Positions 17,460 to 29,811 of a DNA stretch of 59,540 nt are shown piece after piece. This DNA is from a virus: IMG/VR virus record IMGVR_UViG_3300045988_178894, positions 1-59,540 of that record. One strand, written 5' to 3'. A program made the position numbers and the translations under genes. Position 1 is the first letter of the stretch. Every line of letters begins with the position of its first letter. A model generated the notes under the pieces. That model was not told the origin of the DNA. It did not search any database and saw only the letters and a program-made list of their open reading frames with translations.

Positions 17460-17510
17460 GCCCCCGGGGAGGACTCGAACCTCCGCATGCCGGAACCCTC
17501 CGGCCGGGGG
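17460..17510 (-). ncRNA. tRNA-like minihelix (acceptor + small hairpin + T-arm; no D arm, no 7-nt anticodon loop)
   Basis: Minus strand: CCCCCGG-CCGGAGGGTTCCGG-CATGC-GGAGG-TTCGAGT-CCTCC-CCGGGGG-C. Perfect 7-bp acceptor pairing and a canonical T-loop. Confidence 0.55.
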
Positions 17511-17520
17511 CGCCCGTCGG

Positions 17521-17922
17521 CTACCTCTTGAGCAGTCTGCGGGCGGTGGCTCCGGAGGCGGTCAGCCCCAGGCAGCCGTAGGTAACCCCATCCCGGCGCA
17601 CGTTGCGTCCGGGCGTGAGGATGTCATCCCGGTCGGGGAACAGTTCCTCGACCGTCGTCTGCACCATGCGCGTCACGATGAGGAACGTGTCCTCCCGGTA
17701 AGGCGGGAGGAAGGCGTGCGTGGCCCGCCCCTTGCACGACACGGGGATGACCGTGATCCCTCGCCACCCGGGCGTGGTGACGCCCACCGAGGTCATCCCC
17801 TCGTCCCGGTGTCGGACGGTGGGCGAGTTGCCGTCGGCCTGAAGCACCAGGATGGTGGTCTCCCGATCGGCGGGGTCGACAATCCGCAGCTGCCGGCCCG
17901 TCATGTTCAGGATGCGCGTCAT
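17521..17922 (-). CDS. hypothetical protein (paralog of 23831..24178)
   Basis: Start ATG 17922 (MTRILNMTGRQLRIV). Shares LN(L/M)T, IV(T/A), RxD(I/L), GC.GL landmarks with 23831..24178. Confidence 0.6.
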   Translation of the reverse strand: MTRILNMTGRQLRIVDPADRETTILVLQADGNSPTVRHRDEGMTSVGVTTPGWRGITVIPVSCKGRATHAFLPPYREDTFLIVTRMVQTTVEELFPDRDDILTPGRNVRRDGVTYGCLGLTASGATARRLLKR

Positions 17923-18248
17923 CAGTCCCCCTCCTCGATGTTCTTGGGCTCGGGTCCCCTGTTCTCGGCCATTACGGGCCTCCCGGCCTCCCACTCCTCG
18001 TCCGTCTTTCCCGCCTTGTACCCCTCGATGAAGTCGATCAGACCGTCAGGGTCGTCGACGAATCGCTTTCTCAGGCGGTAGCAGGTCTGCCAGCGGACCC
18101 GGTGCATCTCGAAGACGGCGTCGAAGAGCTCGTTGTCTTCCGACAGTCCCCAGTACTGGCTTCCCAGGCACTCGGTGATGATCCCCTGGAGCCAGACCTC
18201 GGCGCTGAATCGCCTGTCCCAGGCGGTGTAGGGCGTGTGGTCACTCAT
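17922..18248 (-). CDS. hypothetical protein
   Basis: Start ATG 18248 (MSDHTPYTAW) after GGAAAGAGAGGAAC. Confidence 0.6.
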   Translation of the reverse strand: MSDHTPYTAWDRRFSAEVWLQGIITECLGSQYWGLSEDNELFDAVFEMHRVRWQTCYRLRKRFVDDPDGLIDFIEGYKAGKTDEEWEAGRPVMAENRGPEPKNIEEGD

Positions 18249-18276
18249 GTGTTCCTCTCTTTCCTCTTGTGGCTGT

Positions 18277-19005
18277 TCAGTCGGTTTCCAGGCTCTTCTC
18301 GACACGGCTGAGCAGGGCCTTGATGGCGTCCTCGCTCTCGCTCGACAGGCCCGTGGGCCGCCCGCCGGGGCAGAACTCCAGGGTGTCGGGCTCCCCGTGG
18401 AGAACCGGCCGCATGTCGATGCGCCCGAAGGCGTGGACGGTGATGATCTTGACCGGCAGGTAGCACTCCCGGTCCCAGATCCGGAACTCCATGCTCTCAT
18501 CGCGCTTCTCCGTCGACGTGATGGTGATCCGCCAACTGCGCGGATCCCAGGAGTTGAGCACGTTGCTCACCCACCGTCTCGCCTTCTCGTAGGCGATGAG
18601 CCGGGTGGCGCTGTCCAGGCGGGCCTGGACCACACGCCAGTTCTCCTCGTCCCACACGTCGACGAGGAGGGTGGCCCTCTCAGGGTTCGTCTCGGGGTTG
18701 AACCAGAAGACCCGCCCTGCGTCGATGACCAGGTGGTTGTAGAAGCAGGTCTCGTTCTCCAGCCACGCCCGCAGGACCTTGTCGACGATCCAGCCGATCG
18801 TCCCGTCCTCGCCGATGCACCGTTCCTCGCAGGATTCGTGCTCGACGATCAGGTCGAACTCGGGCACAACCTCGAAGTCGAGGCCGTGGAAGTTCGTGGG
18901 GATGATTCCCCTCCCGTTCTCCCGACCCCCGGGCTCCAGCGCTCCGCTGAGCCCCGGGGGCAGGTGCTTTGCGACGTCGTACCAGCCGTCGGGCATGGTG
19001 GTCAT
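18277..19005 (-). CDS. hypothetical protein
   Basis: 242 aa, ATG in an ATGA overlap. Confidence 0.6.
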   Translation of the reverse strand: MTTMPDGWYDVAKHLPPGLSGALEPGGRENGRGIIPTNFHGLDFEVVPEFDLIVEHESCEERCIGEDGTIGWIVDKVLRAWLENETCFYNHLVIDAGRVFWFNPETNPERATLLVDVWDEENWRVVQARLDSATRLIAYEKARRWVSNVLNSWDPRSWRITITSTEKRDESMEFRIWDRECYLPVKIITVHAFGRIDMRPVLHGEPDTLEFCPGGRPTGLSSESEDAIKALLSRVEKSLETD

Positions 19006-19751
19006 CGTCCCGTCACCTCGTCGATCGTCTTGCGGTAGTCCATCAGGGACGAGTAGTGCACCCCGTAGGACGCGATCTCCGCCGTCACGTACGGGTCGAC
19101 TTCGATGCCGAGTCGGGTGACCCTCCCCGTTCCGCCGTCAACGCGGATGATCAGCCTGCCCTTCGGGGCATCGATGGCGGCCGTCCGGGGGTCGAGGATC
19201 TGGGTGGTAGCGGTATCGACACCGGCCCGCATGATCCGATCGAGGGACTCCAGCACGATCGCCCGCAGGAGGCTGCGCTCAAGGCGGTCGGCGGCGTACT
19301 CGACGAAGGCGCCCAGTCCCTTCTCGAAATCCCCCCGCTTCAGGGGCATGTCCCTGAAGGATGCGATGGGAACCTCGTCCCACATGATCCCCTCATCGTC
19401 GGTCCGCAGCGCTCCCGCGTCGTCCCCCGGCAGATTGTCGATGACCTGGCGCAGGGCGGCGGCCTCGATGCTGCGTGCGACTTCGCGGGGCTTCAGTCCC
19501 CACCTGCACACGGCATTCGGGCCGGAACCGGGCTTGTTGAGCAGCAGTTGGATCCCGCCGCCCTCCCCCGCCGTCCGGCGCAGGGCGGCGATGTACTCGG
19601 TGTTACCGTTCGGCCAGACGGTGTGGATCTCCAGGCCGTCGGGGCTCCGGGCCTCCGTCAGCAGGACCCTCTTGTCGCGCAGGTACGGGGGCAGGTACAA
19701 GCGCACCTGTTCCCAGAACTCAGTCACCTCGGTACGGTCATCAGCGTCCAC
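19002..19751 (-). CDS. hypothetical protein (tandem paralog A)
   Basis: GTG 19751 (VDADDRTEVTEFWEQV). Collinear similarity to 19741..20535 (ADDR.E..EFW..V..LP; TVW.NGN.E.IA; LPG; F.EY...R). Confidence 0.55.
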   Translation of the reverse strand: MDADDRTEVTEFWEQVRLYLPPYLRDKRVLLTEARSPDGLEIHTVWPNGNTEYIAALRRTAGEGGGIQLLLNKPGSGPNAVCRWGLKPREVARSIEAAALRQVIDNLPGDDAGALRTDDEGIMWDEVPIASFRDMPLKRGDFEKGLGAFVEYAADRLERSLLRAIVLESLDRIMRAGVDTATTQILDPRTAAIDAPKGRLIIRVDGGTGRVTRLGIEVDPYVTAEIASYGVHYSSLMDYRKTIDEVTGR

Positions 19752-20535
19752 TGTCGTTCTCCTTCCCCTTGTTCTCGCTGTGCCCGCCGCTGACGGCGAC
19801 GTGGATGAGCAGCTGCATGGTGCAGTACGGGTACGACACGCCCCGCGAACCCATCGTGATGTCGACACTTCCCAGGACCTCCCCGTCCAGGGTGGACAGG
19901 GCGACCTCGGCCGTCCCCCGGTTGGTGCGGATCTTGATGGCCCGCTCGGGCAGGCCGATGCTGCTCATCCCGAGGGCGGGGGACACCGCCACCGTGAAGG
20001 GGACCTCCTCAAGGAGGAAGTAGTCGACCATGGTGGTCAGCGCCCGGCGGGCCAGGGCCCTGTCGGCCCGCTCCTGCACGTACTCGGTGAACTCGCCCAT
20101 GTTCTTCGCTCCGCAACCGTAGTCGCAGAAGTCGGCGACGATCGACTCATCCCACTCGAAGTAGTCCCCTGCGGTCCACGCACCGGGCAGGTGCTGGCGG
20201 ACCTGGTCGGCGGCCCGCTTCTCGATGACTCCGGCCACCCGCTTGGCATCGACGTCGGTCAGGGTGCGGCCGCCGGTGCCGGGTTCGACGACGAGGAGGT
20301 TGAACCTGTCCTCCTCGTCCTCCCTCCCCGGGGTCTTGGCGAGCATGTACAGGGAGGCGATGCGCTCCTCGTTCCCGTTCCACCACACGGTGAAGATGTC
20401 GATGTCGTCGGGGTCCAGCGACGGCCGGGCCGACACGAAGTCCCCTCGTCGGATCATCCTGGGCAGCAGGTCCTTGACCTCAGCCCAGAACTCCGCCATC
20501 TCCTCGCTCATCTCGATCCTGTCGTCAGCTGACAT
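19741..20535 (-). CDS. hypothetical protein (tandem paralog B)
   Basis: 264 aa, begins MSADDRIEMSEEMAEFWAEV. Confidence 0.6.
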   Translation of the reverse strand: MSADDRIEMSEEMAEFWAEVKDLLPRMIRRGDFVSARPSLDPDDIDIFTVWWNGNEERIASLYMLAKTPGREDEEDRFNLLVVEPGTGGRTLTDVDAKRVAGVIEKRAADQVRQHLPGAWTAGDYFEWDESIVADFCDYGCGAKNMGEFTEYVQERADRALARRALTTMVDYFLLEEVPFTVAVSPALGMSSIGLPERAIKIRTNRGTAEVALSTLDGEVLGSVDITMGSRGVSYPYCTMQLLIHVAVSGGHSENKGKENDSGR

Positions 20536-21265
20536 GGCTCTCCTTCCTCTTGTTCTTCTCGATCACGTTGTTCAGGAACAGGACGGCCCGTTCGTGGGCC
20601 TCCTGCACGGCCTCGGACCCCCAGGCCAGGTGGAAGCACGGCCCCCGACCCTTCGGGTCCAGGATGTTGACGTCGATCAGGCCCTCGTCGTCGGGGGCGA
20701 TGACGATCTCGACGCTCCCGTGCCCGCCGGTGAGGTACCGGATCATGTTCGGCGTGGACTCCTTGGTCACCCGGAGGGGGATGTCGTTGTCCAGGTCCGT
20801 GGCGAAGTCGCCGACCCAGCACTCAGCCGCCTCGGATCGGATCTGATCCCTGTACTCCCGCAGGTCCGTGGTGTTCACGTCCAGGAGTTCGTTCATGTTG
20901 TCCGACACCCAGCTCAGGCCGAAGTAGTCGTCCCAGACCAAAGGCAGGTCCCCGACGAGGACGTTCAGCGCGGAGTGGAACACGGCCAGGGCGATGTTAC
21001 CGACGTACTCGTGCGTGTAGGGGATCGGGTACGGGTCCAGGTCCCTGCTCCAGCTCCTCAGCGGCGTGAAGAACTCCTCTCCCGCGTCGCCCTCGCCGAT
21101 GACGCCCAGGACCCGGTCGCCCCCGACACCCATCAAGGTGACGACGCCGGTGTTCAGGTCGAGTCGCAGCATGCGCACCACAGCCTCGGAGGGGACCTGC
21201 GCCAGCACGCGCATCCAGATCCTCGTGCGCTCGTCGAACGTGTCCCACGTGATCTCCTCGATCAT
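20525..21265 (-). CDS. hypothetical protein
   Basis: 246 aa, ATG in an ATGA overlap. Confidence 0.6.
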   Translation of the reverse strand: MIEEITWDTFDERTRIWMRVLAQVPSEAVVRMLRLDLNTGVVTLMGVGGDRVLGVIGEGDAGEEFFTPLRSWSRDLDPYPIPYTHEYVGNIALAVFHSALNVLVGDLPLVWDDYFGLSWVSDNMNELLDVNTTDLREYRDQIRSEAAECWVGDFATDLDNDIPLRVTKESTPNMIRYLTGGHGSVEIVIAPDDEGLIDVNILDPKGRGPCFHLAWGSEAVQEAHERAVLFLNNVIEKNKRKESHVS

Positions 21266-21579
21266 GCGTTCCCCTCCTTCTCCGCCCGCCCCCGCCGATC
21301 CCGGATCGCCTCGTGCAGGACGAGGAAGTTGGCGACGGCGACGATCACCTCCTCCTCCCGCGCGCTACCGCGCTGGAAGGTGACCCGCCGGCCCTTGTCG
21401 TCGGCATCGTGGTACGTCGCAGCGGTGCCGCTCTCGTCGGGGCCGCCCAGGTACAGGGTCGCGTGCGCTCCCCCACTGCCGGGGATCTCGATGCGGGCGT
21501 AGGAGTGCTCCCCGCCCATGACCCGTGCCGATGGGGCGTCGCGGGTGACCTCGGCAATGAACTGCTGAATGGTTCTCAA
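21262..21579 (-). CDS. hypothetical protein (TTG start)
   Basis: 105 aa. TTG 21579 preceded by GAAGAGGAGACGAGAG. Confidence 0.5.
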   Translation of the reverse strand: MRTIQQFIAEVTRDAPSARVMGGEHSYARIEIPGSGGAHATLYLGGPDESGTAATYHDADDKGRRVTFQRGSAREEEVIVAVANFLVLHEAIRDRRGRAEKEGNA

Positions 21580-21634
21580 GGCTCTCGTCTCCTCTTCTCT
21601 TTCCTCCGGTTCTCAAGCGGATGCTTGGAACCCG

Positions 21635-21676
21635 CGCCGGACGGGGGAGTCGAACCCCCGCTTCGACCGTCCCGGC
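21635..21676 (-). ncRNA. tRNA-like minihelix (acceptor + T-arm only)
   Basis: Minus strand: GCCGGGAC-GGTCGAAGC-GGGGG-TTCGACT-CCCCC-GTCCGGC-G. 7 bp of acceptor pairing with one bulged G. Confidence 0.55.
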
Positions 21677-21691
21677 TGTTAGCGTGCGGGG

Positions 21692-22123
21692 TCACCACAC
21701 GTAGATGTCCACCTCGTGCGTGGCGCTGCCGACGGTGCGACAGCAGTCGACGCAGACGGCTCCCGCCCAGGACGGGTCCGGTACGGTCCCGACCTTGCGC
21801 GCCTCGTACTTGTGTCGTGCCTCGTGCTGGGGGCACAGCGGACCGTAGTGGCTGTTGCCGTTCCGGGGCAGGACGACATAGCCCTCGGCGTTCAGGGCGG
21901 ATTCCAGGAAGCCCCGGAGCACGGGCTCGGCCAGAGGGTCCCGCCCGTCGTAGGACTTCCTGCCGAGCAGGCCGTTGGCCAGCGCCCGCAGTCCCTCCCA
22001 GGTGAGCACGTGGTCGGCCCACGACGGGGCCGGGTTCCACTCGGGTGAGGCGTCCGCCTCCAGGGCCTCGACGATCCGCTCGATGAGGGCGTCGGTGCCG
22101 GTCTTGGCCTCGTTCTCGTCCAT
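21692..22123 (-). CDS. hypothetical Cys-rich protein
   Basis: 143 aa, ATG start. C-terminal CPQH...CVDCC. Confidence 0.6.
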   Translation of the reverse strand: MDENEAKTGTDALIERIVEALEADASPEWNPAPSWADHVLTWEGLRALANGLLGRKSYDGRDPLAEPVLRGFLESALNAEGYVVLPRNGNSHYGPLCPQHEARHKYEARKVGTVPDPSWAGAVCVDCCRTVGSATHEVDIYVW

Positions 22124-22153
22124 TGTTCTCTCTTCTCGGTTGGTTGTTGTCGC

Positions 22154-22453
22154 TCAGCGACGGTCCTGGAACAGGGCGGCGTGCAGGGCCGCCCAGATCT
22201 CCCAGTCCAGGCTGTCATTGGCGGTGAAAACACTCTCAGCCCGACGGGTGAACGTGTCCCGAGCGACCTTAAGGCCCCTCCGGCGCATCTGGGACACGGC
22301 GAGCCGGGCGATCAGGTCCGGTCGGATGCCATCGGGCGAGTCAGCGTCCTCGAAGATGTACCTGAAGACGTTCCTCGCCTCTTCCAGGTTTCCTGCGAGC
22401 AGCGCGCTGCGGACGAGCAGGGCCTGCTCGTGCAGCCAAGTCGTCATATTCAC
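22154..22453 (-). CDS. hypothetical protein
   Basis: GTG 22453 lies 7 nt after GAGAGGAGG (alternative ATG 22447). Confidence 0.55.
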   Translation of the reverse strand: MNMTTWLHEQALLVRSALLAGNLEEARNVFRYIFEDADSPDGIRPDLIARLAVSQMRRRGLKVARDTFTRRAESVFTANDSLDWEIWAALHAALFQDRR

Positions 22454-22487
22454 GGTGATGCCTCCTCTCTTCTCTTGGTTGGCATCG

Positions 22488-22534
22488 TGCTCCCGGCGGG
22501 GCTCGAACCCGCTGTGCGGCCGTGCGACGGGAGC
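22488..22534 (-). ncRNA. tRNA-like minihelix (acceptor + T-arm only)
   Basis: Minus strand: GCTCCCG-TCGCACGGCCGCACA-GCGGG-TTCGAGC-CCCGC-CGGGAGC-A. Perfect 7-bp acceptor. Starts 9 nt after the stop of 22544..22852. Confidence 0.6.
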
Positions 22535-22543
22535 GGCCGCTGT

Positions 22544-22852
22544 TCAGGCGGCGTTGGTTGCGAGGATGAAGATGCGGGTCAGGGCGTCCTCGTCCCAGAG
22601 GGCTCCGCTGTTCAGCGTTTCGTCCGTCTCCCAGTCGACGATCCGGTAGGAGCCCCGGACGGGATTCCCGTCGGCGGCCCAGACGAAGCACACGTCAATG
22701 TCCTGCTCCCGGTCCTCGTCGGTGATCTCCCAGATGACTTCAAGGCCGCCGTTCGAGGCGGGCTCCCGCCGCACCCGGGCGTCGGCGGGGATGACGCGCC
22801 AGTTGCGGGCGTGCCAGGTGGCGTACCCGGCGTTCATGGTGTAGTCGTTCAT
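22544..22852 (-). CDS. hypothetical protein
   Basis: 102 aa, ATG after GAGAGAAGAGAACC. Confidence 0.6.
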   Translation of the reverse strand: MNDYTMNAGYATWHARNWRVIPADARVRREPASNGGLEVIWEITDEDREQDIDVCFVWAADGNPVRGSYRIVDWETDETLNSGALWDEDALTRIFILATNAA

Positions 22853-22880
22853 GGTTCTCTTCTCTCAAATGATGAGCGCC

Positions 22881-22914
22881 GGGGCAGGTGAGTATCAAAA
22901 TCTCGTCCCGCCCC
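22881..22914 (-). repeat. conserved hairpin copy 1 (anticodon-arm-like loop)
   Basis: Minus strand: GGGGCGGG-A-CGAG-AUUUUGAUA-CUCA-CCUGCCCC. Homologous to 23790..23821. Confidence 0.6.
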
Positions 22915-22934
22915 GGCCCGGTTATGGGCTGGGA

Positions 22935-23681
22935 TCAGGCGTAGATCATGACCGCCCGCGTCAGGGCGTCCTCTGTGGCGGCCACGGGGATCGCATCGTA
23001 GAGTCCGACGGCGCCGATCTCATACTCCTCCCGCTCGCCGCCGAGCGGGCTCCCGCCGGGGCCCCAGCTGAAACTGATGTTGTCCGCCGCGGGGCGCAGC
23101 GGGTGCCGCGGGTAGAGGACGACTTGGAGGCCGCCGTCGTTTCGGGCGTAGAACACGGCCCTGGTCTGCGTCGGGACCGGGGTACGCAGCCGCCACTCGA
23201 CGAACGCCTTCATCGCGGCGCCTTCGATACCGCGTCCCGCGTCCACGTGGCGCAGGATCGCGTCCAGGTTCTCCCACGGCATGTCGTTGCCCTTACGCCA
23301 GGCGAACACGACATGGGCAGGGATCACGCCCCACGGCGTCTCAAGGGAACCCGGCTCATCGCCGAGAAAGAACCTCCCGGCGTCGCCGCGGTCCTGGACC
23401 AGCCAGGACGAGATGAGCAGTGAGGCAATCTTCTCCCGCACCTGGTCGACCGTGGGCCAGTCCGGGCCGTACCAGTGGACGGCGTCCTGACCTTCCTGGC
23501 CGTCCCAGCCCGGCTGGAAAGCAAGGACGCCCTCGTCCGCGTAGAACCCGGGCGGGGCGTAGTAAGGCATATGCCTGAGCTCCTCGTAGGGGCGCAGAAT
23601 CCCGCCGTCCAGGAGCGGTCCGATCTCGTCCCACCGGGACGGGTCGACAATCCGGTTTCCGATCTTGGTATCAGCGCTCAT
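22935..23681 (-). CDS. hypothetical protein
   Basis: Start ATG 23681 (MSADTKIGN) after GGAAGAGAGAGAGAGAGGAAACCACA. Confidence 0.6.
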   Translation of the reverse strand: MSADTKIGNRIVDPSRWDEIGPLLDGGILRPYEELRHMPYYAPPGFYADEGVLAFQPGWDGQEGQDAVHWYGPDWPTVDQVREKIASLLISSWLVQDRGDAGRFFLGDEPGSLETPWGVIPAHVVFAWRKGNDMPWENLDAILRHVDAGRGIEGAAMKAFVEWRLRTPVPTQTRAVFYARNDGGLQVVLYPRHPLRPAADNISFSWGPGGSPLGGEREEYEIGAVGLYDAIPVAATEDALTRAVMIYA

Positions 23682-23736
23682 TGTGGTTTCCTCTCTCTCT
23701 CTCTCTTCCGGTGCCGTACTTTTGCACGACAATCAC

Positions 23737-23780
23737 GCCCCGGGCCCGCGGCGAACGGGTAGGAGTCCTCCTCCCGGGGC
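23737..23780 (-). repeat. degenerate tRNA-like element closed by GCCCCGGG/CCCGGGGC
   Basis: Minus strand: GCCCCGGG-AGGAGGACTCCTA-CCCG-TTCGCCG-CGGG-CCCGGGGC. Keeps a T-loop-like TTCGCCG. Confidence 0.45.
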
Positions 23781-23789
23781 TAATGGGTT

Positions 23790-23821
23790 GGGCGGGCGAG
23801 TATTGGAATCTCGTCCCGCCC
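23790..23821 (-). repeat. conserved hairpin copy 2 (anticodon-arm-like loop)
   Basis: Minus strand: GGGCGGG-A-CGAG-AUUCCAAUA-CUCG-CCCGCCC. Confidence 0.6.
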
Positions 23822-23830
23822 GGGCTGGGT

Positions 23831-24178
23831 TCAGGCGCGGCGGGTAAGCCCGTCGCAGCCGATCACGGTGCCGTCCTCATCGCGGATGAGGCGGCCGGGG
23901 CTCATCAGATCGCCGCGGTGCCGCGGGGCCGCGTCGGCCACGGCCTTGGCGACGATGAGCACGACGCCCTCCTCGGGATCGGGCAGGCCGACAATCTCCC
24001 GCGGGCTCCCGGCGACGGCGACGGCGATCTCGTGTCCAGCGATGTTCGTCTGCTCCGGGGGAAGCCGATCGTAGATAACCCGGGCCGCCCCGTCGGGGCT
24101 GGGCGGAATGGTGATGTACTCCCCGTCCACAGTCTTGACGTACAGGGCGTGGGGCGTCAGGTTCAGGTAGGTGATCAT
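23831..24178 (-). CDS. hypothetical protein (paralog of 17521..17922)
   Basis: 115 aa, begins MITYLNLTPHALYV; C-terminal GTVIGCDGL. Confidence 0.6.
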   Translation of the reverse strand: MITYLNLTPHALYVKTVDGEYITIPPSPDGAARVIYDRLPPEQTNIAGHEIAVAVAGSPREIVGLPDPEEGVVLIVAKAVADAAPRHRGDLMSPGRLIRDEDGTVIGCDGLTRRA

Positions 24179-24196
24179 GATGGTCCTCTCTTCAAA

Positions 24197-24264
24197 GGCT
24201 CGAATTATTTCGAGCCCCGCGCCCCGGGGCGGCAGCGGGCCGCGGCGATCCTCTCTCCCGGGGC
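24197..24264 (-). repeat. degenerate tRNA-like element plus adjacent perfect hairpin
   Basis: Minus strand: GCCCCGGG-AGAGAGGATCGCC-GCGGC-CCGCT-GCCGC-CCCGGGGC (24264..24221), then GGCTCGAA-ATAA-TTCGAGCC (24216..24197). Confidence 0.45.
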
Positions 24265-24288
24265 TGATAGCGGGATACGGGGCGGGGT

Positions 24289-24606
24289 TCAGTCCTCGGG
24301 TTCGGCGTACAGGGCCCGGACCACTTCCTGACGGGCCCTGTCACTGGGCGCGATGCCCGTGATACGCACGATGACGGCGTCCGGAAGCTCCGCCACGAGG
24401 CTGACCACCTGGGGCAGCGTGAGGCCCCGAGTGAGGGCGCGGTAGCCGTCCTCTTCGATCTCGGCCTCCCACAGGGAGGCCTTGCGGCCGTCGGGATCGG
24501 TGAGTACCTCATAGGCCTCCGCATAGGCCAGAGCGGCGATCCCGCCCATGCGGGCGATGGGGATACGCCACACAGCGCAGGGGAAGCCGTAGAGCATCGC
24601 ATTCAT
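24289..24606 (-). CDS. hypothetical protein
   Basis: 105 aa. ATG preceded by the conserved leader CCAACCGAAAGGAACCGAACA. Confidence 0.6.
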   Translation of the reverse strand: MNAMLYGFPCAVWRIPIARMGGIAALAYAEAYEVLTDPDGRKASLWEAEIEEDGYRALTRGLTLPQVVSLVAELPDAVIVRITGIAPSDRARQEVVRALYAEPED

Positions 24607-24648
24607 TGTTCGGTTCCTTTCGGTTGGTTTTTCTTACCCGGGCCGGCG

Positions 24649-25032
24649 CTAGCGCCGGTTCTGACGCCAGATGACGTAGCTAGTGCCCTTGCCGTTCCCC
24701 GCCGTAGCGGCGTCCCAACGGCAGCCGGCGTAGCCGTCGGGGATGGCCCCATCGCCATCCTCATCCGTGAGGCAGTCGGCGACCGATTCCCACGCACATT
24801 CCTCCGTCCCGCCCATTGCTGCGCGCTCGCAGTGGGGCGCGAGGTAGGTGTTATGGGCGGTAGCGGTAGCAGTAGCGGCCGGGGTAGCGGTCCCGGTCGG
24901 GACCGTATTGCGGGCGCCGTCGGCGATGAAGGCCGCGGCGCCGGCGATCATCGCGCCCGCGGCGACGACGGCCGCGCCGGTGTACAGGACACGAGACGCG
25001 GTCCAGTCATTCGGGAAAGCGTACACGATCAT
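24649..25032 (-). CDS. membrane-anchored or secreted hypothetical protein
   Basis: 127 aa. N-terminal hydrophobic segment LYTGAAVVAAGAMIAGAAAFIA, then Thr/Ala-rich linker and Cys-containing domain. Confidence 0.6.
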   Translation of the reverse strand: MIVYAFPNDWTASRVLYTGAAVVAAGAMIAGAAAFIADGARNTVPTGTATPAATATATAHNTYLAPHCERAAMGGTEECAWESVADCLTDEDGDGAIPDGYAGCRWDAATAGNGKGTSYVIWRQNRR

Positions 25033-25132
25033 GGTGAATTATTCCTCTCGGTTCAGTGGGTGTGTGCCGCGAAGCGGCATCCCCGCTAACGCGGGGTTAA
25101 ATGTTGGGTTGGCGGGTTGGTGGGCCGGCGGA

Positions 25133-25474
25133 TTAGTAGCCGTACTCCATAAGCCAATCGGCCAACTCAAATTCGGATTCCACTTCCTTACGGAAAATGG
25201 TCTCTCCCGCCCTATCCTTTCCGTCCCGGAAAGCGTACTCAACGACGACGCCCCGCTCGAAGCGTCCGTCGGCGCCCCACTCCGCATGGGCGTGCAGCTC
25301 TCGCCCGCGCCAGCCTCGGACCCATGCGGCCAGCACAGAACCGTCGGAGTACTTAGTCATACCATAGGTTTCGGCGGCCAGTTTGGTCCACGTACGCCTG
25401 AACCACTCCCACCCAGTGGGCGGTGGGGGCATATTCTTAAGCACCTCAATCACTTCGGGAGTGTCACAGTACAT
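25133..25474 (-). CDS. hypothetical protein
   Basis: Start ATG 25474 (MYCDTPEVIE) after GGAAGGAAGGATCCAAA. Confidence 0.6.
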   Translation of the reverse strand: MYCDTPEVIEVLKNMPPPPTGWEWFRRTWTKLAAETYGMTKYSDGSVLAAWVRGWRGRELHAHAEWGADGRFERGVVVEYAFRDGKDRAGETIFRKEVESEFELADWLMEYGY

Positions 25475-25526
25475 TTTGGATCCTTCCTTCCGGTTCAGGT
25501 AGGCGCAAACGATCGTTTGCGCTTCG

Positions 25527-25580
25527 CGCCCGGGCGCGGGATCGAACCGCGCTGCTGCCTCCGCCGTGAGGCGGCCGGGC
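25527..25580 (-). ncRNA. tRNA-like element (acceptor + one hairpin + T-arm)
   Basis: Minus strand: GCCCGGC-C-GCCTC-ACGGCG-GAGGC-AGCAG-CGCGG-TTCGATC-CCGCG-CCCGGGC-G. 6 of 7 acceptor pairs. Followed by palindrome GCGCAAACGATCGTTTGCGC. Confidence 0.55.
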
Positions 25581-25608
25581 TGATAGTAGGAGTAGGGATT
25601 AGGGCCGG

Positions 25609-26178: not shown

Positions 26179-26486
26179 TTTCGGGTTCCTTTCGGATGGG
26201 TGGGGATGATGGTCCCGCGATTGGGCGGGATCGCGCCCGGTCCTCTTTTGACAGAGTCCTCTCGTCACCATGCGGGTGACCGGGGCGTTTCTGAGACGCC
26301 CGCTTGGCGTTACCGGGCCGTATACTTCGTCTTATGTCCGTTATTTGTACACCTAAAAATCATTTCGGTTCGTCCCGGCCGACGACGCACTGCCCCGCTC
26401 CCGGAGGAATGGGGCGACGCATCGTCGGCGCTATGGGGCGTCCTAGTGACCTTATGGCACGGACTGCAACTGGCCTACCGGCCGCT

Positions 26487-26521
26487 CGCGGTAATTTTTA
26501 ACCGTCTATTGCATTACCGCG
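26487..26521. promoter_or_regulatory. 9-bp inverted repeat (candidate operator)
   Basis: cgcggtaat-N17-attaccgcg. On the minus strand it spans a weak candidate promoter TTGAGA-N18-TGCAAT. Confidence 0.3.
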
Positions 26522-26927
26522 AATATGTAGTTCTCAATCTTCCCGGGGTAAGGATGAGATAGTCGGTGGGGTTCCGCTTCTCTCTTCCTCCCTGTGATGA
26601 CTCTAGTCTAGCGCGCTCGCTGGGGAAAGTCTAGTCTTAAATCTGTGTTCTACGTCTCTTTTGAGTTTGTGGTTCAAACTCGGGAGATCGGGCCCGCCGT
26701 ACGGCGGGAATCGACAGAAACCTTGGCTTCCTCTCTCTCCTACGCGGGGGACTATCCCGGCCGCGCCGTCGCCCTAGGGCGACGGGGAGGCGCACTATCC
26801 AATTTTCATCACGCGCGCTCACCGGGTAGGGGAGCACAGTGCCCCGGCGTCGGCTTGCACGACGCCCGTCTCTATGGTCCGGGGCGCCCCGTGAGGGGCG
26901 AAGTATGTGGGGGTAGGGCAAGCGGAG

Positions 26928-27269
26928 TTAGGCGGCCGGCGCCGGATGCCGGCTGGCCGCGTAGGCGCGGGGGTAGCCGGCCGCGGTCGACAGAGCGTCT
27001 GCGAGGCGTCCCCTCCAATCGCCCTCGGTGGGATAGCCGGCCGGGGCGTGGGGCAGGCCGGCGACGGTGTAGGCGATGTCCGCCGGCCCCAGAGGGGCGA
27101 GCAGGCCGTCGGCGACCGATCGGTGGATCGGGTATCCCCGCATGAGGTCACGGGCGAGCTCATCCGCGCATCGGCGGATGAGTCCCTGAGCCGGGACGCG
27201 CTGGCGATAGCAGCTAGCGGGATACCCCCACATGGCGGGGACCTGGGTTGGGGCCTTGGCGGGGTTCAT
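26928..27269 (-). CDS. hypothetical protein (only confident ORF in the control region)
   Basis: 113 aa, GC3-rich. ATG preceded by the same leader CCAACCGAAAGGAACCGAA used by genes at 24606 and 26178. Confidence 0.6.
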   Translation of the reverse strand: MNPAKAPTQVPAMWGYPASCYRQRVPAQGLIRRCADELARDLMRGYPIHRSVADGLLAPLGPADIAYTVAGLPHAPAGYPTEGDWRGRLADALSTAAGYPRAYAASRHPAPAA

Positions 27270-27314
27270 TTCGGTTCCTTTCGGTTGGTTGGTCGTTTCC
27301 TTCTGACGGGTATA

Positions 27315-27343
27315 AAGGTACTCGCCCCGTGAGGGCTAGTCAA
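27315..27343 (-). promoter_or_regulatory. candidate leftward promoter TTGACT-N17-TACCTT
   Basis: Minus strand: -35 at 27343..27338 and -10 at 27320..27315, about 45 nt upstream of ATG 27269. Confidence 0.4.
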
Positions 27344-27491
27344 GCCGATGAGGGAGGAAAGTAGTGTGTTCTCCGTCATATTTTGGGTTGGTGGTTTGTA
27401 CCGGTACGAACTCCGCTCACTGCGCGGGCACGGCATAGCCGGCGATCCTCTCTCTCATGGGCGCCGGGGCGCAGCGCAGCGGAGACGAGCG

Positions 27492-27633
27492 AAGCGAGGC
27501 AGCCAAGCGCATGTCGGGCTCTCTCTCTCTCTTCCCGCGGGGATGATCCTCGCATGTTTCACGTGGAACATGCGAGTAGGGAAGCGGGGCGGGTGCGGAT
27601 GGGGGAGTCGACATGCGCTTGGCTGCCTCGCTT
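27492..27633. repeat. nested long palindrome
   Basis: Outer arms 27492..27516 and 27609..27633 are perfect 25-bp complements. Inner hairpin ctcgcatgtt (27549..27558) / aacatgcgag (27567..27576) surrounds a tcacgtgg loop. Confidence 0.85.
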
Positions 27634-28121
27634 GCGTGCTCCTGCGTCGCACGCGCGCTCGTCTCGCCAGCGCAGGACGGGGTATGACGTAGGACACATA
27701 GAAGCGATGATGCATAGGTTGGACGGGGAGGCAAGGGACCTTGGTCCCGAAGATGATTAGGGGAGTGGGTGGGGGTAGGGCGAAAGTTTCGGGTAGCCGA
27801 AGAATGGTACGTGTGGCGTGGTATGGGTGGCGGGGTATTACGTCAGGCGTATCATCCTCGGGGAGGAGGAGTGTGATGAAGGACACGGAGGAATGGTGGT
27901 TGACAGAAGCGGGGGAGTATGCTATGGAAAATGTGATGAAGGTCATACGGGGAAGGTATTGCACATAACACTGTTATGTGCATGTGTGAGTAGCAATCTC
28001 GCGTGAGGGTGGGTTGGGAGTATGGAAATCTGGTCCCAAAAATAGTGAACAACGGGGAAATGTGACTCGGATCATATGCATAAAGATACGGTTGAGTGCA
28101 TAATGGACTTTCTTCGTAATA

Positions 28122-28196
28122 GATGATGATGATGATGATGATGATGAATGATGATGAATGATAGATGATGATGAATGATAGATGATAGACGATGAC
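28122..28196. repeat. GAT microsatellite and degenerate derivatives
   Basis: (gat)8 followed by gaatgatgat / gaatgata / gatgatgat / gaatgata / gatgata / gacgatgac. Confidence 0.9.
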
Positions 28197-28227
28197 TATA
28201 TATGGTAAATGACAGTCTTTAATTCTG

Positions 28228-28325
28228 CGTTTACTATATTCGATTCTTACTTGGATGTGACGTGGGTTACGTTCACTATATTCGATTTTGTGACACGGGT
28301 TACTTTCACTATTTTCGTTTGTGGC
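28228..28325. repeat. three iteron-like direct repeats in the AT-rich core (candidate origin)
   Basis: ttactatattcgatt (28231), tcactatattcgatt (28273), tcactattttcgttt (28306). Interleaved tgtgacgtgggttac (28256) and tgtgacacgggttac (28290). Confidence 0.6.
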
Positions 28326-29691
28326 CTGGCTCACGTTTATCTATGTTTGGCAGTCTTTTACGCATACGTCGACCACGGATTGGTACTCACTAGACGAGCG
28401 TATATCTATGTCAGCTGCGTGGTTTGTATCAGTACAAAGCCGAATCGTCGCTGTACGGGGCCTAGAACGGCCGATACCCCTACCCCTAGGCGACTACACC
28501 GGGCCGTGCGTGATAGGCCGCCAGCGTGGCTTACAGCGAGCCCCGGGGGTACATGCGCCCATATGGGTAGGCGCACGCATACGTGCACGCGCGCGTGATA
28601 GCACACATGGGGAGATTTGGCTAGGGTGAGTTTGTGTGCGGTGAGTCATGTGTCTTGACACAGCGTGTGTGAGCAAGGCAACAAATTAGTGGGAGTGCCC
28701 CATCGTTTCGATTTGGGGTAGGAGCTGCATTCCGCCCACGGGGACCTTTCGTTGGCACCGTAGGGAAAGGTGCCGATAAGTACCGTTATGACATTTTACT
28801 TAGCAGACCGTCTACATACCGGGGGATTTTTGAGGGGAGCATTCTAGTGCGAGCGTGGGGGAAAATCAATGTGACGTGCGTCGCAGGCCGGCGAAGGCGA
28901 AATCGGATGCTCTCGACAACGGGGTGTGGCACGCGGGTGTGAGGTCGCTCATCTTTCCCCGCACCCTGCGCCTCTTAACCCCCGACTTCCCTACTCGCCT
29001 AGCAGAGTACCCCTCGCTTTGTCAAAACCGTCGCCCCTCACCTGAAGAGTGTTTCCAAATGATTATGCACGATTTTATCCATGGCTGCATAAACGTGTTC
29101 TGGGTCACTGAGTACTAAAAACGCCCCATCCTCCCCACACCTCCCATCCGTCACATAGGCCCTTAGTCCCCCCACCCCGACCTCCCCCACTCCTCCCAAC
29201 GAAAAGTCCCACTTAGCCGACCCTAAGAAATCTCCGCATATTTCCTATGCATACCGCTGCATAAAGGCCGTATATTATGCATTGTCCACCATTTGGGACT
29301 CAAAACGTTTCAACGTTAGTTGGGCCACATTTTCGTATGCATCCCTCCCTCCCTCTTCCAACCTCCAAACCTGTTACCCGTGTGACCAGACAACACCAAA
29401 CATCACCAACCACCCCCGAGAATTATGGTTTTCCGAAGACAGATGTCACAGTGACCAGTGTGACGATCCCCTTCCGTTTTCTCCTCCCCTCAGGAGGGAA
29501 GAGGGGGTGTCGATACCCCGAAGGGGACCTGGGCGCCCATAGTTTCTTTATTTACTGCGCAAACCCCTTCCTCCTCTTCCCCCTCTTCTCCCTCAAGAAC
29601 CCCGCCAGTCACAGCCCGGCCCTCAGCCCTTCCGCGCCCCGCCGCCAACGCCAGGGGGTGTCGAGCAACCGGGGCAGTGTCGACAAGCCCC

Positions 29692-29719
29692 TTGACAGCC
29701 CGCCAACCCCGGTTATAAT
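29692..29719 (+). promoter_or_regulatory. consensus sigma70-type rightward promoter
   Basis: TTGACA (29692..29697), 16-nt spacer, TATAAT (29714..29719). About 90 nt upstream of the first rightward gene. Confidence 0.7.
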
Positions 29720-29811
29720 CGCGCGCCCGCACACGCACGCCCGCGCGCGGTGATAAGAAGGAAGCGGGGACGGGAGGAGGGGGTGTCGCGTCCCCGTGCT
29801 ACTCTCCAGTC

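What the first reader, a model, noticed from the sequence alone, without database searches (positions are those of the whole stretch)
21580..25608. Truncated tRNA-like elements (acceptor stem + canonical T-arm, no D or anticodon arm) punctuate the leftward accessory operon
On the minus strand, successive intergenic gaps carry textbook T-arms: a 5-bp stem ending in G, a 7-nt loop TTCGANN, and a return stem starting with C. They are GGGGG-TTCGACT-CCCCC (21643..21659), GCGGG-TTCGAGC-CCCGC (22496..22512) and CGCGG-TTCGATC-CCGCG (25535..25551). A fourth lies at 17468..17484. Each T-arm is followed directly by 7 nt that pair with 7-8 nt lying only 9-22 nt upstream of it (for example GCTCCCG...CGGGAGC, perfect). 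That spacing gives an acceptor/T-arm minihelix with no room for D and anticodon arms, and no CCA is encoded. Two more gaps (23737..23780 and 24221..24264) hold degenerate relatives closed by GCCCCGGG/CCCGGGGC. One keeps CCCG-TTCGCCG-CGGG, and both share the lead-in AT(C/T)A-GCCC with the 25580 copy. All begin 9-28 nt after a stop codon and end before the next gene's SD. Four independent T-loop matches with matching acceptor pairing are not expected by chance. I do not know of a described equivalent inside phage mRNAs. Hypotheses (inference): RNase P / RNase Z / CCA-enzyme-recognised processing or 3'-end-stabilising punctuation of the polycistronic early transcript; decoys for host tRNA-targeting defence nucleases or toxins; decayed remnants of a tRNA array.
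Basis: partly seen in the sequence, partly recalled or inferred. Interest (0 to 1): 0.85.

Follow-up and report, generated by a model that had tools for sequence, protein, structure and literature searches.

The report
Anticodon-less tRNA mimics between phage genes
The gaps between genes on the leftward arm of this Actinomyces phage hold seven conserved RNA elements that copy only the top half of a tRNA. I found the same unannotated element in cultured Gordonia phages and in many viral metagenome contigs, so it is a widespread class that I could not find described, and it probably recruits the host's tRNA-processing enzymes.

Summary
Four perfect T-arms (5-bp stem, G53-C61, loop TTCGANN), each followed directly by an acceptor 3' strand that pairs a few nt upstream, lie on the minus strand at the stated coordinates. 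Shuffles give 0.16 such sites per window. Two degenerate copies are confirmed and I found a seventh at 26841-26885. All seven are intergenic and in the sense orientation.

ARAGORN and Rfam find no tRNA. There is no anticodon arm, and the acceptor and T stems always stack to 12 bp.

In related IMG/VR phages the acceptor and T-arm are invariant. The middle part varies from 9 to 70 nt, with compensatory hairpins and G-U wobbles that are legal only on the gene strand.

Covariance models built only from the 16 unannotated intergenic copies in Gordonia phage VanLee recover E5, E1, E2, E0 and D6 as the top window hits (E from 2.6e-10 to 0.015). The same models gave 125 hits at E<0.01 in 636,947 bases of 59 other loci, including a tandem array.

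CRISPR spacers point to Actinomyces as the host.

The most likely function is inferred, not shown: these are RNase P and RNase Z processing signals that cut the polycistronic mRNA. Release as small decoy RNAs is the main rival. I rate it a new variant of a known kind (tRNA-like structures).

The parts
17460..17511 (-). E0. Acceptor GCCCCCG(G)/(C)CGGGGGC, D-arm-like hairpin CCGGA-GGGU-UCCGG, T-arm GGAGG-TTCGAGT-CCTCC. Starts 9 nt after the stop codon of gene 17521-17922 and lies upstream of gene 16606-17427.
   Evidence: VanLee model R1 scores it 23.4 bits, E 7.5e-4
21636..21676 (-). E1. Acceptor GCCGGGA/GTCCGGC, 10-nt linker CGGTCGAAGC, T-arm GGGGG-TTCGACT-CCCCC, then G73-CG.
   Evidence: VanLee model R2 scores it 50.3 bits, E 2.2e-10, gapless including the linker; R1 30.3 bits
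21608..21632 (-). Hairpin GGTTCCAAGC-atcc-GCTTGaGAACC, 3 nt after E1 and ahead of the Shine-Dalgarno sequence of gene 21262-21579. Its sequence differs between relatives but it stays a hairpin.
22489..22534 (-). E2. Acceptor GCTCCCG/CGGGAGC (perfect), linker TCG..GGCCGC.., T-arm GCGGG-TTCGAGC-CCCGC, then A73-CGA.
   Evidence: R1 27.8 bits, E 5e-5; 3' half identical to that of a tRNA-Glu(CUC) in L031
23737..23780 (-). D3, a degenerate copy. Acceptor GCCCCGG(G), hairpin AGGAG-ga-CTCCT, arm (A)CCCG-TTCGCCG-CGGG(C).
   Evidence: only 11.2 bits with R1, so membership rests on its homologues in relatives
23712..23731 (-). Hairpin TGTCGTGC-aaaa-GTACGGCA, 5 nt after D3.
24221..24264 (-). D4, a degenerate copy. 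Acceptor GCCCCGG/CCGGGGC, arm (C)GCGG-CCCGCTG-CCGC(C). The L010 homologue has loop TTCGCTG.
   Evidence: 11.3 bits with R1; a CRISPR spacer (L061_17) matches it exactly
24195..24218 (-). Hairpin GGGGCTCGAA-ataa-TTCGAGCCTT, 2 nt after D4 and running into a short T run.
25528..25580 (-). E5. Acceptor GCCCGG/CCGGGC (6 bp), hairpin CCGCC-tcac-GGCGG, AGGCAGCA, 6-bp T-stem GCGCGG-TTCGATC-CCGCGC, then G73-CGA.
   Evidence: R1 47.7 bits, E 2.6e-10; spacers from six CRISPR arrays match it
25503..25522 (-). Hairpin GCGCAAAC-gatc-GTTTGCGC, 5 nt after E5.
26841..26885 (-). Acceptor GCCCCGG/CCGGGGC (perfect), linker ACCATAGAGACGGG, arm CGTCG-TGCAAGC-CGACG, then A73. Lies downstream of gene 26928-27269.
   Evidence: R1 18.5 bits, E 0.015

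Best explanation
**What they are.** Each element is an RNA structure on the sense strand of the leftward polycistronic transcript. It reproduces the top half of a tRNA:
- an acceptor stem stacked on a T-stem, always 12 bp in total;
- a canonical T-loop UUCGAYY closed by G53-C61;
- a conserved GG that could cap the T-loop as G18/G19 do;
- a purine at position 73.

The anticodon domain is replaced by a free-to-vary linker or small hairpin. The elements derive from real tRNA genes (Glu-like, Leu-like) that lost the anticodon domain.

**Proposed mechanism (inferred).**
1. Host RNase P, which recognises exactly this T-arm/acceptor stack and measures from the elbow, cuts at -1/+1.
2. A 3' tRNA-processing activity (RNase Z type; the encoded R73-C74-G75 is not the CCA antideterminant) cuts after position 73.
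3. The operon is thereby chopped into separate mRNAs.
4. The hairpin that follows most copies becomes the protective 5' end of the downstream cistron.
5. A roughly 45-nt minihelix is released as a by-product.

**Shown:** the structure, its conservation, strand specificity, intergenic position and family-wide occurrence.

**Inferred:** every enzymatic step.
For: **Structure and statistics**
- 4 strict copies versus 0.16 expected.
- A spliced core alignment of 35 distinct acceptor/T-arm cores from 10 sub-families has 94.5% of cells paired. Shuffles give 70%, slid registers give at most 60%, and 9 of 12 pairs change on both sides.
- A family-wide alignment of 102 distinct sequences has 97.2% of cells paired and 14 of 15 pairs changing on both sides. 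G53-C61 is kept in 102 of 102 and loop TTCGA in 93-102 of 102.

**Strand.** G-U wobbles occur on the gene strand only: E2 position 6 is C or T, the E5 T-stem is TGCGG/CCGCG, and E1 position 67 is T or C.

**Selection on the top half only.** The middle part ranges from 9 to 70 nt, with compensatory hairpins (CCGCC/GGCGG, CCGTC/GACGG, and unrelated 11-12 bp versions). Meanwhile the 24-30 nt 3' part is identical in phages whose neighbouring protein is only 62-74% identical.

**Independent model.** Covariance models built only from Gordonia phage VanLee rank E5, E1, E2, E0 and D6 as the top five window hits, all on the minus strand.

**Position**
- All seven window copies lie between genes on the same strand, and all 16 VanLee copies lie between annotated genes on the same strand.
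- In the window, 4 of the 6 copies that precede a gene are followed within 2-5 nt by a stable hairpin. Most VanLee copies are followed by one too.
- No intrinsic terminators were predicted at these sites.

**No phage enzyme.** The window encodes no tRNA-processing, ligase, CCA-adding or Ro protein, so host enzymes must act.

**Literature**
- RNase P binds the T-stem-loop/acceptor stack and measures from the elbow, and CCA is the RNase Z antideterminant (PMC4919913).
- An anticodon-less tRNA-like domain with a 7-bp acceptor stem (M. smegmatis YrlA) is cut by RNase P in vitro and is cleaved and CCA-tailed in vivo in an actinobacterium (PMC4201824).

**Closest Rfam family.** VanLee copies give sub-threshold hits to mascRNA-menRNA, a tRNA-like 3'-end processing signal.
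Against: - No transcript-end data exist, so no cleavage has been shown.
- Position -1 is A in 87 of 102 copies, whereas E. coli RNase P is known to prefer U (own knowledge).
- Pure structural recognition would not require the observed sequence invariance of the stems within a sub-family.
- One viral contig (L137) carries 8 copies in tandem, and L106 has two copies back to back, with no ORFs between them. This fits a small-RNA product better than mRNA punctuation.
- Many adjacent genes in the same operon have no element between them, for example 17922-21265 in the window.
Confidence: 0.5

Rival explanations
1. The released minihelix is itself the product. After RNase P and RNase Z processing and CCA addition, the roughly 45-nt anticodon-less 'mini-tRNAs' accumulate. 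They act as decoys or sponges for factors that recognise the acceptor end or elbow of tRNA. Candidates are acceptor-end-modifying defence toxins (own knowledge: MenT/AbiEii nucleotidyltransferases, CapRel-type pyrophosphokinases) or tRNA-processing and modification enzymes.
For: - There is a tandem array of 8 copies without ORFs (L137) and a back-to-back pair (L106).
- There are up to 16 copies per genome.
- Acceptor and T-arm sequence is invariant within sub-families, while structure-neutral change is allowed only in the middle part. This suggests a sequence-specific partner.
- Different sub-families copy different tRNA acceptor identities, Glu-like and Leu-like.
- The precedent is YrlA, which is CCA-tailed in M. 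smegmatis.
Against: - No expression or stability data exist.
- No target is known.
- In the window and in VanLee, every copy sits exactly between a stop codon and the next ribosome-binding site, which a free-standing small-RNA gene would not need.
- CCA is not encoded.
Confidence: 0.2
2. They are DNA-level recombination sites. The conserved 30-60 bp blocks serve as shared homology (or as folded single-stranded sites, like integron attC) at which accessory gene cassettes are exchanged between phages. The tRNA likeness would only be a relic of origin.
For: - E5 is flanked by 9 upstream types and 15 downstream types, in 31 combinations across 42 loci. Homology breaks right after position 72/73.
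- E2 shows the same pattern.
- The phage encodes a Sak4-like annealase and an exonuclease.
Against: - The middle of each element is hypervariable while both ends are conserved. That is the signature of selection on a folded RNA, not of recent exchange.
- G-U wobbles are strand-specific.
- The T-loop consensus, G53-C61 and the 12-bp stack are kept across Gordonia and Actinomyces phages with unrelated flanks.
- No integrase was found.
- Mosaic junctions may simply be a consequence of having conserved blocks.
Confidence: 0.1
3. They are generic RNA stability or attenuation elements: a barrier to 3' exonucleases, or a factor-independent terminator without a U tract. They would work as any stable stem-loop does, with no involvement of tRNA enzymes.
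For: - The structures are GC-rich and stable, with MFE of about -24 to -34 kcal/mol.
- They lie just downstream of stop codons.
- Hairpins without U tracts have been proposed as actinobacterial terminators (own knowledge).
Against: - A generic hairpin would not keep UUCGA, G53-C61, the GG, R73 and a fixed 12-bp stack in 102 sequences.
- The terminator scan finds nothing at these sites.
Confidence: 0.1
4. They are functionless decaying pseudogenes of a former phage tRNA array.
For: - They derive from tRNAs.
- A distant relative (Arthrobacter phage Amigo) has real tRNAs in the equivalent operon.
- D3 and D4 have degenerate T-loops.
Against: - The top half is invariant across phages with 62-74% protein identity.
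- Changes are compensatory.
- The same architecture recurs in unrelated phage lineages.
Confidence: 0.03

Closest known systems
mascRNA / MEN-beta tRNA-like structures at the 3' ends of the MALAT1 and NEAT1 lncRNAs (Rfam RF01684)
   Same: A tRNA-like fold embedded in a longer transcript, with a good acceptor/T-arm half and a poor anticodon part. It serves as an RNase P (and RNase Z, CCA-adding enzyme) processing signal and releases a small tRNA-like RNA. It is the best, though sub-threshold, Rfam hit for the VanLee copies (26.8 bits against a gathering score of 42.5).
   Different: It is eukaryotic and nuclear, with one copy per lncRNA and a full cloverleaf-like shape. Here the context is bacterial phage mRNA, with 7-16 copies per genome, no anticodon arm at all, and no significant sequence match.
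Mitochondrial 'tRNA punctuation' of polycistronic transcripts
   Same: tRNA-shaped units lie between cistrons of one long transcript, so that RNase P and RNase Z cuts release the mRNAs.
   Different: Mitochondrial punctuation marks are the functional tRNAs themselves. Here the units cannot decode. Processing is not shown here.
Bacterial Y RNA YrlA tRNA-like domain (PMC4201824)
   Same: An anticodon-less tRNA mimic with T-arm, D-arm and acceptor-like stem. It is found in Actinobacteria and in some phages. The M. smegmatis version is cut by RNase P and CCA-tailed.
   Different: YrlA is a stand-alone ncRNA encoded next to a Ro60/Rsr gene, and it has a Ro-binding stem. The window has no Ro/TROVE gene, Rfam gives no Y-RNA hit, and the copies lie between cistrons.
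tmRNA tRNA-like domain
   Same: Acceptor stem plus T-arm, with a D-loop remnant and no anticodon arm.
   Different: The tmRNA domain brackets a long mRNA-like and pseudoknot domain and carries G3-U70 for alanylation. ARAGORN finds no tmRNA and none of the copies has G3-U70.
RNase P-processed phage regulatory RNAs (P1/P7 C4, P4 CI, phi80 M3; own knowledge)
   Same: Phage transcripts matured by host RNase P through an acceptor-stem-like helix.
   Different: They are single regulatory RNAs without a consensus T-loop, and they are not repeated between genes.
Promoter-stem-loop cassettes (PeSL) of T4-type phages and integron attC sites (own knowledge)
   Same: Repeated structured intergenic elements that bound small accessory gene cassettes and coincide with mosaic junctions.
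   Different: Those act as promoter/terminator pairs or as integrase sites. They show no tRNA features.

Membership tests
Canonical tRNA (Rfam RF00005 / ARAGORN) | Complete cloverleaf with D-arm and anticodon stem-loop, detectable by tRNA finders | tested here: not met
   ARAGORN finds 0 genes in the window. Rfam with E up to 10 gives only a 19.4-bit tRNA-Sec local hit on E0, with the anticodon and variable arms deleted. Only 7-39 nt lie between the acceptor 5' strand and the T-stem in the 102 aligned copies; some long variants in relatives reach about 70 nt.
Canonical tRNA (Rfam RF00005 / ARAGORN) | T-arm: 5-bp stem closed by G53-C61, 7-nt loop T54-T55-C56-R57-A58 | tested here: met
   E0, E1, E2 and E5 are perfect. 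Family-wide, G53-C61 is kept in 102 of 102, and T, T, C, G, A in 101, 99, 102, 93 and 101 of 102. D3, D4 and D6 deviate in the loop.
Canonical tRNA (Rfam RF00005 / ARAGORN) | Acceptor stem stacked directly on the T-stem (12 bp) with a purine-rich discriminator position | tested here: met
   The stack is 7+5, 6+6 or 8+4 bp in most copies (E0 has one extra nucleotide or pair). R73 is kept in 98 of 102.
VanLee-type intergenic tRNA-like minihelix (family defined here by models R1 and R2) | Significant score with covariance models built only from Gordonia phage VanLee copies | tested here: met
   R1 scores: E5 47.7 bits, E1 30.3, E2 27.8, E0 23.4, D6 18.5 (E from 2.6e-10 to 0.015). R2 scores E1 at 50.3 bits. 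D3 and D4 reach only 11 bits (E about 1.3), so they do not meet this test on their own.
VanLee-type intergenic tRNA-like minihelix (family defined here by models R1 and R2) | Sense orientation in a gap between same-strand genes, followed by R73-C-G | tested here: met
   Window. VanLee: all 16 copies lie between annotated CDS. C74 is kept in 102 of 102 and G75 in 91 of 102 (partly forced by the retrieval pattern).
tmRNA | Tag-peptide reading frame and pseudoknots between the two halves of the tRNA-like domain; G3-U70 | tested here: not met
   ARAGORN finds no tmRNA. Position 3-70 is C-G or U-A in all sub-families.
Y RNA (YrlA) | Encoded next to a Ro60/Rsr (TROVE) gene; Ro-binding stem | tested here: not met
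   None of the 56 predicted window proteins has a TROVE or Ro family hit. No Rfam Y-RNA hit. VanLee does encode a Ro-like protein, but it lies about 5 kb or more from most copies and on the other strand.
mascRNA-menRNA (RF01684) | Score at or above the Rfam gathering threshold | tested here: not met
   The best score is 26.8 bits against 42.5 (VanLee copy). There is no hit in the window.
RNase P / RNase Z / CCA-adding enzyme substrate | Cleavage at -1/+1 and after N73, then CCA addition | not testable with these tools
   This needs end mapping or in vitro assays. Only the known structural determinants are present (PMC4919913, PMC4201824).
Intrinsic terminator | GC-rich hairpin followed by a U tract | tested here: not met
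   No minus-strand terminator-like site falls at any element. Only the hairpin after D4 runs into a short T run.
attP / tRNA 3' fragment left by integration | A single 3' tRNA fragment next to an integrase, with no matching 5' acceptor strand | tested here: not met
   There are seven copies, each with its own pairing 5' strand. No integrase family was found.
Integron attC | IntI integrase; R''/L''-L'/R' boxes with extrahelical bases | tested here: not met
   No integrase was found, and the conserved positions are tRNA positions. attC boxes were not searched for explicitly.

The most novel reading that the evidence does not exclude
Phages of Actinobacteria encode families of anticodon-less 'mini-tRNAs'. 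These are cut out of early transcripts by RNase P and RNase Z, CCA-tailed, and possibly even charged. They then act in trans as decoys or sponges for host factors that recognise the tRNA acceptor end or elbow. An example would be anti-phage toxins that modify tRNA 3' ends. That would make them an RNA-based counter-defence class, not just processing signals.
Probability: 0.17. Interest if true: 0.9.

Novelty: new variant of a known kind. Interest (0 to 1): 0.78.

Why it matters
If the elements are processed as proposed, this would be a bacterial and phage counterpart of mitochondrial tRNA punctuation and of mascRNA-type 3'-end formation. The phage would use the host's tRNA maturation enzymes to cut a long operon of small accessory genes into separately stabilised messages.

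- **Spread.** The class is not confined to this window. It is present and unannotated in cultured Gordonia phages (16 copies in VanLee), and the VanLee model gave 125 hits at E<0.01 across IMG/VR contigs from many metagenomes.
- **Testability.** It can be tested directly in a tractable SEA-PHAGES host-phage pair.
- **Annotation.** It explains the regular gaps of about 100 nt in such genomes.
- **Tools.** It offers natural tRNA-based polycistron-processing parts for Actinobacteria.
- **Evolution.** It marks the junctions at which accessory cassettes are shuffled.
- **Immunity.** It is a conserved target of host CRISPR spacers.
- **Alternative.** If the released minihelices act in trans, they would be a new kind of phage small RNA.

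Tried and rejected
- **Complete tRNAs that were mis-parsed.** Rejected. ARAGORN finds none, Rfam finds none, and the spacing is too short. ARAGORN's odd calls on long variants in relatives (tRNA-Phe aaa, tRNA-???, tRNA-Met) overlap coding sequence or need 4-nt anticodons.
- **Close cultured relatives of the phage.** None found by megablast. Protein searches reach only 28-35% identity.
- **Host tRNA match.** The single genome-contig scan with the E2 3' half gave only a Peribacteria tRNA-Glu and orphan fragments in Myxococcota. The test against Actinomyces tRNAs could therefore not be done.
- **Structure-only descriptor without T-loop sequence.** Not informative in this 67% GC genome: 17 and 25 hits against 11.5 per strand in shuffles.
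- **MAFFT alignment of all sub-families.** It put the 5' strands out of register. I used a spliced core alignment and model-based alignments instead. Both lean towards the structure, which I controlled with shuffled and slid registers.
- **Phage-encoded tRNA enzymes, Ro or integrase.** None found in the window.
- **Internal promoters or terminators at the elements.** None convincing.
- **Literature.** Ten full-text searches found no description of these elements. A catalogue of more than 10,000 unnamed viral structured-RNA candidates (PMC10690425) could include them, but I did not check its supplements.

Full report
**Setting.** The window is a phage genome of about 59.5 kb and 67% GC.
- The left arm (1 to about 27300) is read on the minus strand. 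It carries DNA polymerase A, a DUF3987 primase/helicase, an SNF2 helicase, a Sak4-like annealase, an exonuclease, Bro/Ant proteins and many small genes of unknown function.
- The right arm, from 29800, is read on the plus strand and carries lysis and virion genes.
- A perfect TTGACA-16-TATAAT promoter at 29692-29719 points rightward. Weaker leftward candidates lie at 28200-29450, in a 3.5-kb low-GC stretch that is mostly non-coding.
- No cultured close relative exists.
- Type I-E CRISPR arrays in metagenome contigs carry 27 spacers that match the window. The Cas1 next to one array is 89-90% identical to Actinomyces Cas1e, so the host is an Actinomyces species.

Four perfect T-arms lie on the minus strand at 17468-17484, 21643-21659, 22496-22512 and 25535-25551. 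Each has a 5-bp stem closed by G-C and a loop TTCGANN. Each is followed directly by a strand that pairs with a strand 10-23 nt upstream of the T-arm.
- The strict motif occurs 4 times on the minus strand and 0 times on the plus strand. 500 dinucleotide shuffles give 0.16 on average for both strands.
- ARAGORN finds no tRNA. Rfam finds only a 19-bit local tRNA-Sec match on the 17460 copy.
- The two 'degenerate' copies (23737-23780 and 24221-24264) are confirmed through their homologues, several of which have better T-arms.
- A seventh copy lies at 26841-26885.
- All seven are intergenic, in the sense orientation, and 9-50 nt after a stop codon.
- None encodes CCA.
- MFE folds give the Y-shaped or minihelix structure for most copies.

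**Comparative evidence within the phage clade.** Ten IMG/VR loci were found through a neighbouring protein (62-74% identity). Further loci were found by DNA pattern. They show the following.
- Each sub-family keeps its acceptor strands and T-arm unchanged. The sub-families are E0, E1, E2, E5, D3, D4 and D6, plus E6 and EX, which are absent from the window.
- The part between the 5' acceptor strand and the T-arm varies from 9 to about 70 nt.
- In E5 the inner hairpin keeps CCGC/GCGG. Its fifth pair is C-G, U-A or U-G, its loops run from 4 to 10 nt, and some phages carry unrelated 11-12 bp versions.
- The single-sided changes in the stems are G-U wobbles that are legal only on the gene strand: E2 position 6 C/U, the E5 T-stem UGCGG/CCGCG, and E1 position 67 U/C.
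- Across sub-families, a spliced core alignment has 94.5% of cells paired, against 70% in shuffles and at most 60% in slid registers. 9 of 12 pairs change on both sides. This alignment was assembled by hand from my own structural parse.
- The two stems usually add up to 12 bp (7+5, 6+6 or 8+4).
- Conserved ends with a free middle argue for selection on a folded sense-strand RNA. They argue against neutral decay and against simple recent exchange.

**Origin.**
- The 24-nt 3' half of E2 is identical to the 3' half of a tRNA-Glu(CUC) (Peribacteria locus L031), and its 5' strand matches at 6 of 7 positions.
- E1 starts GCCGGGA-CGG, like the L031 tRNA-Leu (GCCGGGA-UGG). E6 (GCCCGGA-YGGUC) resembles E. 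coli tRNA-Leu as I recall it.
- The conserved GG of the linker or small hairpin (UGGU in 59-65 of about 70 sequences that have those columns) sits where G18-G19 would be.
- A distant relative, Arthrobacter phage Amigo, has two real tRNAs in the equivalent leftward operon.
- The elements therefore look like tRNA genes that lost the anticodon domain but kept the top half.

**The class is much wider than this window.**
- A blastn search with E5 hit unannotated gaps of cultured Gordonia phage VanLee.
- In VanLee's leftward operon of small hypothetical genes, the regular gaps of about 100 nt each hold the same unit. The unit reads: A, then a 6-bp acceptor stem, then either a D-arm-like GCUC-UGGU-GAGC hairpin or a 10-nt linker A-N-GGUCG-YA-N, then a 6-bp T-stem with loop UUCGAYU, then the acceptor 3' strand, then R73-C-G. 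In most gaps a variable hairpin, a conserved leader (CACGGCACCCAAC) and the ribosome-binding site follow.
- The strict descriptor finds 16 copies on that strand, all between annotated genes. On the other strand it finds one hit, the real tRNA-Arg.
- Eight of these paralogues show 97.5% pairing, with 7 of 15 pairs changing on both sides.
- Covariance models built only from VanLee copies were run over the whole window with filters off. The top five hits were E5 (47.7 bits, E 2.6e-10), E1 (30.3 bits), E2 (27.8 bits), E0 (23.4 bits) and D6 (18.5 bits, E 0.015), all on the minus strand. The short-linker model aligned E1 without gaps at 50.3 bits. D3 and D4 reach only 11 bits.
- A degenerate pattern retrieved 68 IMG/VR loci from many metagenomes. 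The VanLee model gave 125 hits at E<0.01 there, typically several per contig on one strand: 15 in L119, 9 in L099 and 6 in L112. It did not hit the real tRNAs of Amigo or VanLee.
- One contig (L137) has a tandem array of eight units of about 120 nt without ORFs.
- The family alignment (102 distinct sequences) has 97.2% pairing and 14 of 15 pairs with double changes. It keeps G53-C61 in all sequences, UUCGA almost always, A at -1 in 87, R73 in 98, C74 in 102 and G75 in 91. The median length is 45 nt. This alignment is fitted to the model, and the retrieval pattern forces some positions for one hit per locus.
- Rfam has no family for these elements. The nearest is mascRNA-menRNA, below threshold.

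**Mosaic junctions and CRISPR.**
- E5 is found between 9 upstream and 15 downstream flank types, in 31 combinations across 42 loci. Similarity stops right after position 72/73. E2 behaves likewise.
- Six Actinomyces CRISPR arrays were retrieved because each carries a spacer matching the E5 3' half, in both orientations. One of them also carries a spacer matching D4.

**Mechanism.** Everything that RNase P, RNase Z and the CCA-adding enzyme are known to recognise is present and conserved: the T-stem-loop/acceptor stack of fixed length, the elbow, and the absence of an encoded CCA (PMC4919913). Everything they do not need is absent or free to vary.
- An anticodon-less tRNA-like domain with a 7-bp acceptor stem is cut by RNase P and CCA-tailed in M. 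smegmatis (PMC4201824).
- The phage brings no enzyme of its own.
- I therefore propose that the elements are processing signals that cut the polycistronic transcript. The hairpin that follows most copies would then form the protected 5' end of the next message.
- This is inference, and I put it at about 0.5.
- That the elements are conserved tRNA-top-half RNA structures I put at about 0.9.
- The tandem array, the high copy number and the sequence-level invariance of the stems keep open the reading that the released minihelices are functional small RNAs, such as decoys (about 0.2).
- Recombination sites, generic stability hairpins and neutral pseudogenes are less likely, for the reasons given under the rival explanations.

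**Novelty.** Ten full-text searches and Rfam 15 gave no description of these elements. A 2023 catalogue of unnamed viral structured-RNA candidates may contain them. I rate this as a new variant of a known kind: tRNA-like structures used as processing signals or mimics. It has a new context (punctuation of phage accessory operons), a new minimal architecture, and a wide distribution that I did not find reported.

Noticed in passing
L047, L052, L053, L061, L065, L073 (metagenome loci); window sites e.g. 1050-1082, 2678-2710, 19025-19056, 24221-24249, 25524-25555, 59155-59185: Very long type I-E CRISPR arrays (repeat GTAAACCCCGCGCGAGCGGGGATGATCC, 60-147 repeats) carry 27 spacers that match the window. 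Spacers from six arrays match E5 (these arrays were retrieved through that match) and one spacer matches D4. The adjacent Cas1 is 89-90% identical to Actinomyces Cas1e, which identifies the host genus.
   Followed up: yes
L079/L080 = Gordonia phage VanLee NC_073474.1 71.5-82.7 kb (minus strand), also 62140-62188: There are 16 unannotated tRNA-like minihelices in the regular gaps of about 100 nt between small hypothetical genes. The related phages Morgana, Cafasso and Aleemily match too. VanLee also encodes a Ro-like protein, a nucleotidyltransferase, a polynucleotide kinase and a tRNA-Arg.
   Followed up: yes
L137 3440-4260 (minus strand); L106 119-205: L137 has a tandem array of eight minihelix units of about 120 nt (two alternating sequence types). 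G-rich spacers end in cATGGAGAAC..GGTA, and there are no ORFs between units. L106 has two copies directly back to back.
   Followed up: partly
window 22878-22917 and 23790-23821 (minus strand): A second repeated intergenic hairpin family (GGGCGGGACGAGATT..(T/C)(G/C)ATACTC..CCCGCCC). It is also found next to E2 in many relatives. Its loop holds a weak TTGATA ... CATCAT promoter-like match.
   Followed up: no
window 26272-29800: A 3.5-kb stretch that is mostly non-coding, at 56-62% GC, between the two divergent arms. It has a (CAT)8 microsatellite at 28123-28146, several leftward promoter-like sites, and a perfect sigma-70 consensus on the plus strand at 29692-29719.
   Followed up: partly
window 25581-25604 and equivalents in relatives: C/T-rich, G-poor tracts of CCCTAC-type repeats lie between the stop codon and several elements. 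They could be Rho-loading or unstructured spacer sequences.
   Followed up: no
family-wide (A8); window 21633-21635, 22486-22488, 25525-25527: R73-C74-G75 directly after the acceptor stem is almost invariant in Actinomyces phage, Gordonia phage and metagenomic copies. Some E5 copies in relatives read GCCA instead. The reason is unknown.
   Followed up: partly
window 23685-23709; most gene starts on the left arm: Long purine-only leaders of (GA)n type (GGAAGAGAGAGAGAGAGAGGAAACC) serve as, or surround, the ribosome-binding sites.
   Followed up: no
window 25033-25132 (minus strand): This gap has no tRNA-like element. It has two small hairpins instead: CCCCGCGTTAGCGGGG at 25081-25096 and GCCGCTTCGCGGC at 25066-25078.
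   Followed up: no
window 19002-19751 and 19741-20535: Two adjacent left-arm genes are paralogues (32% identity over about 235 aa).
   Followed up: partly
L138 1400-1530 = Mycobacterium phage BeanWater MF919494.1 about 92.28-92.41 kb: An unannotated gap inside the tRNA cluster holds a minihelix-like piece with encoded CCA (GGGAGAG...GGGTGGTTCGAATCCACCCTCTCCCACCA). It also holds a tRNA-sized sequence that ARAGORN does not call.
   Followed up: partly
L029, L030, L032 (Archangium, Pyxidicoccus genomes): Orphan 3' halves of a tRNA-Glu-like gene (identical to the E2 3' half) with no full tRNA called. They are probably integration scars.
   Followed up: no
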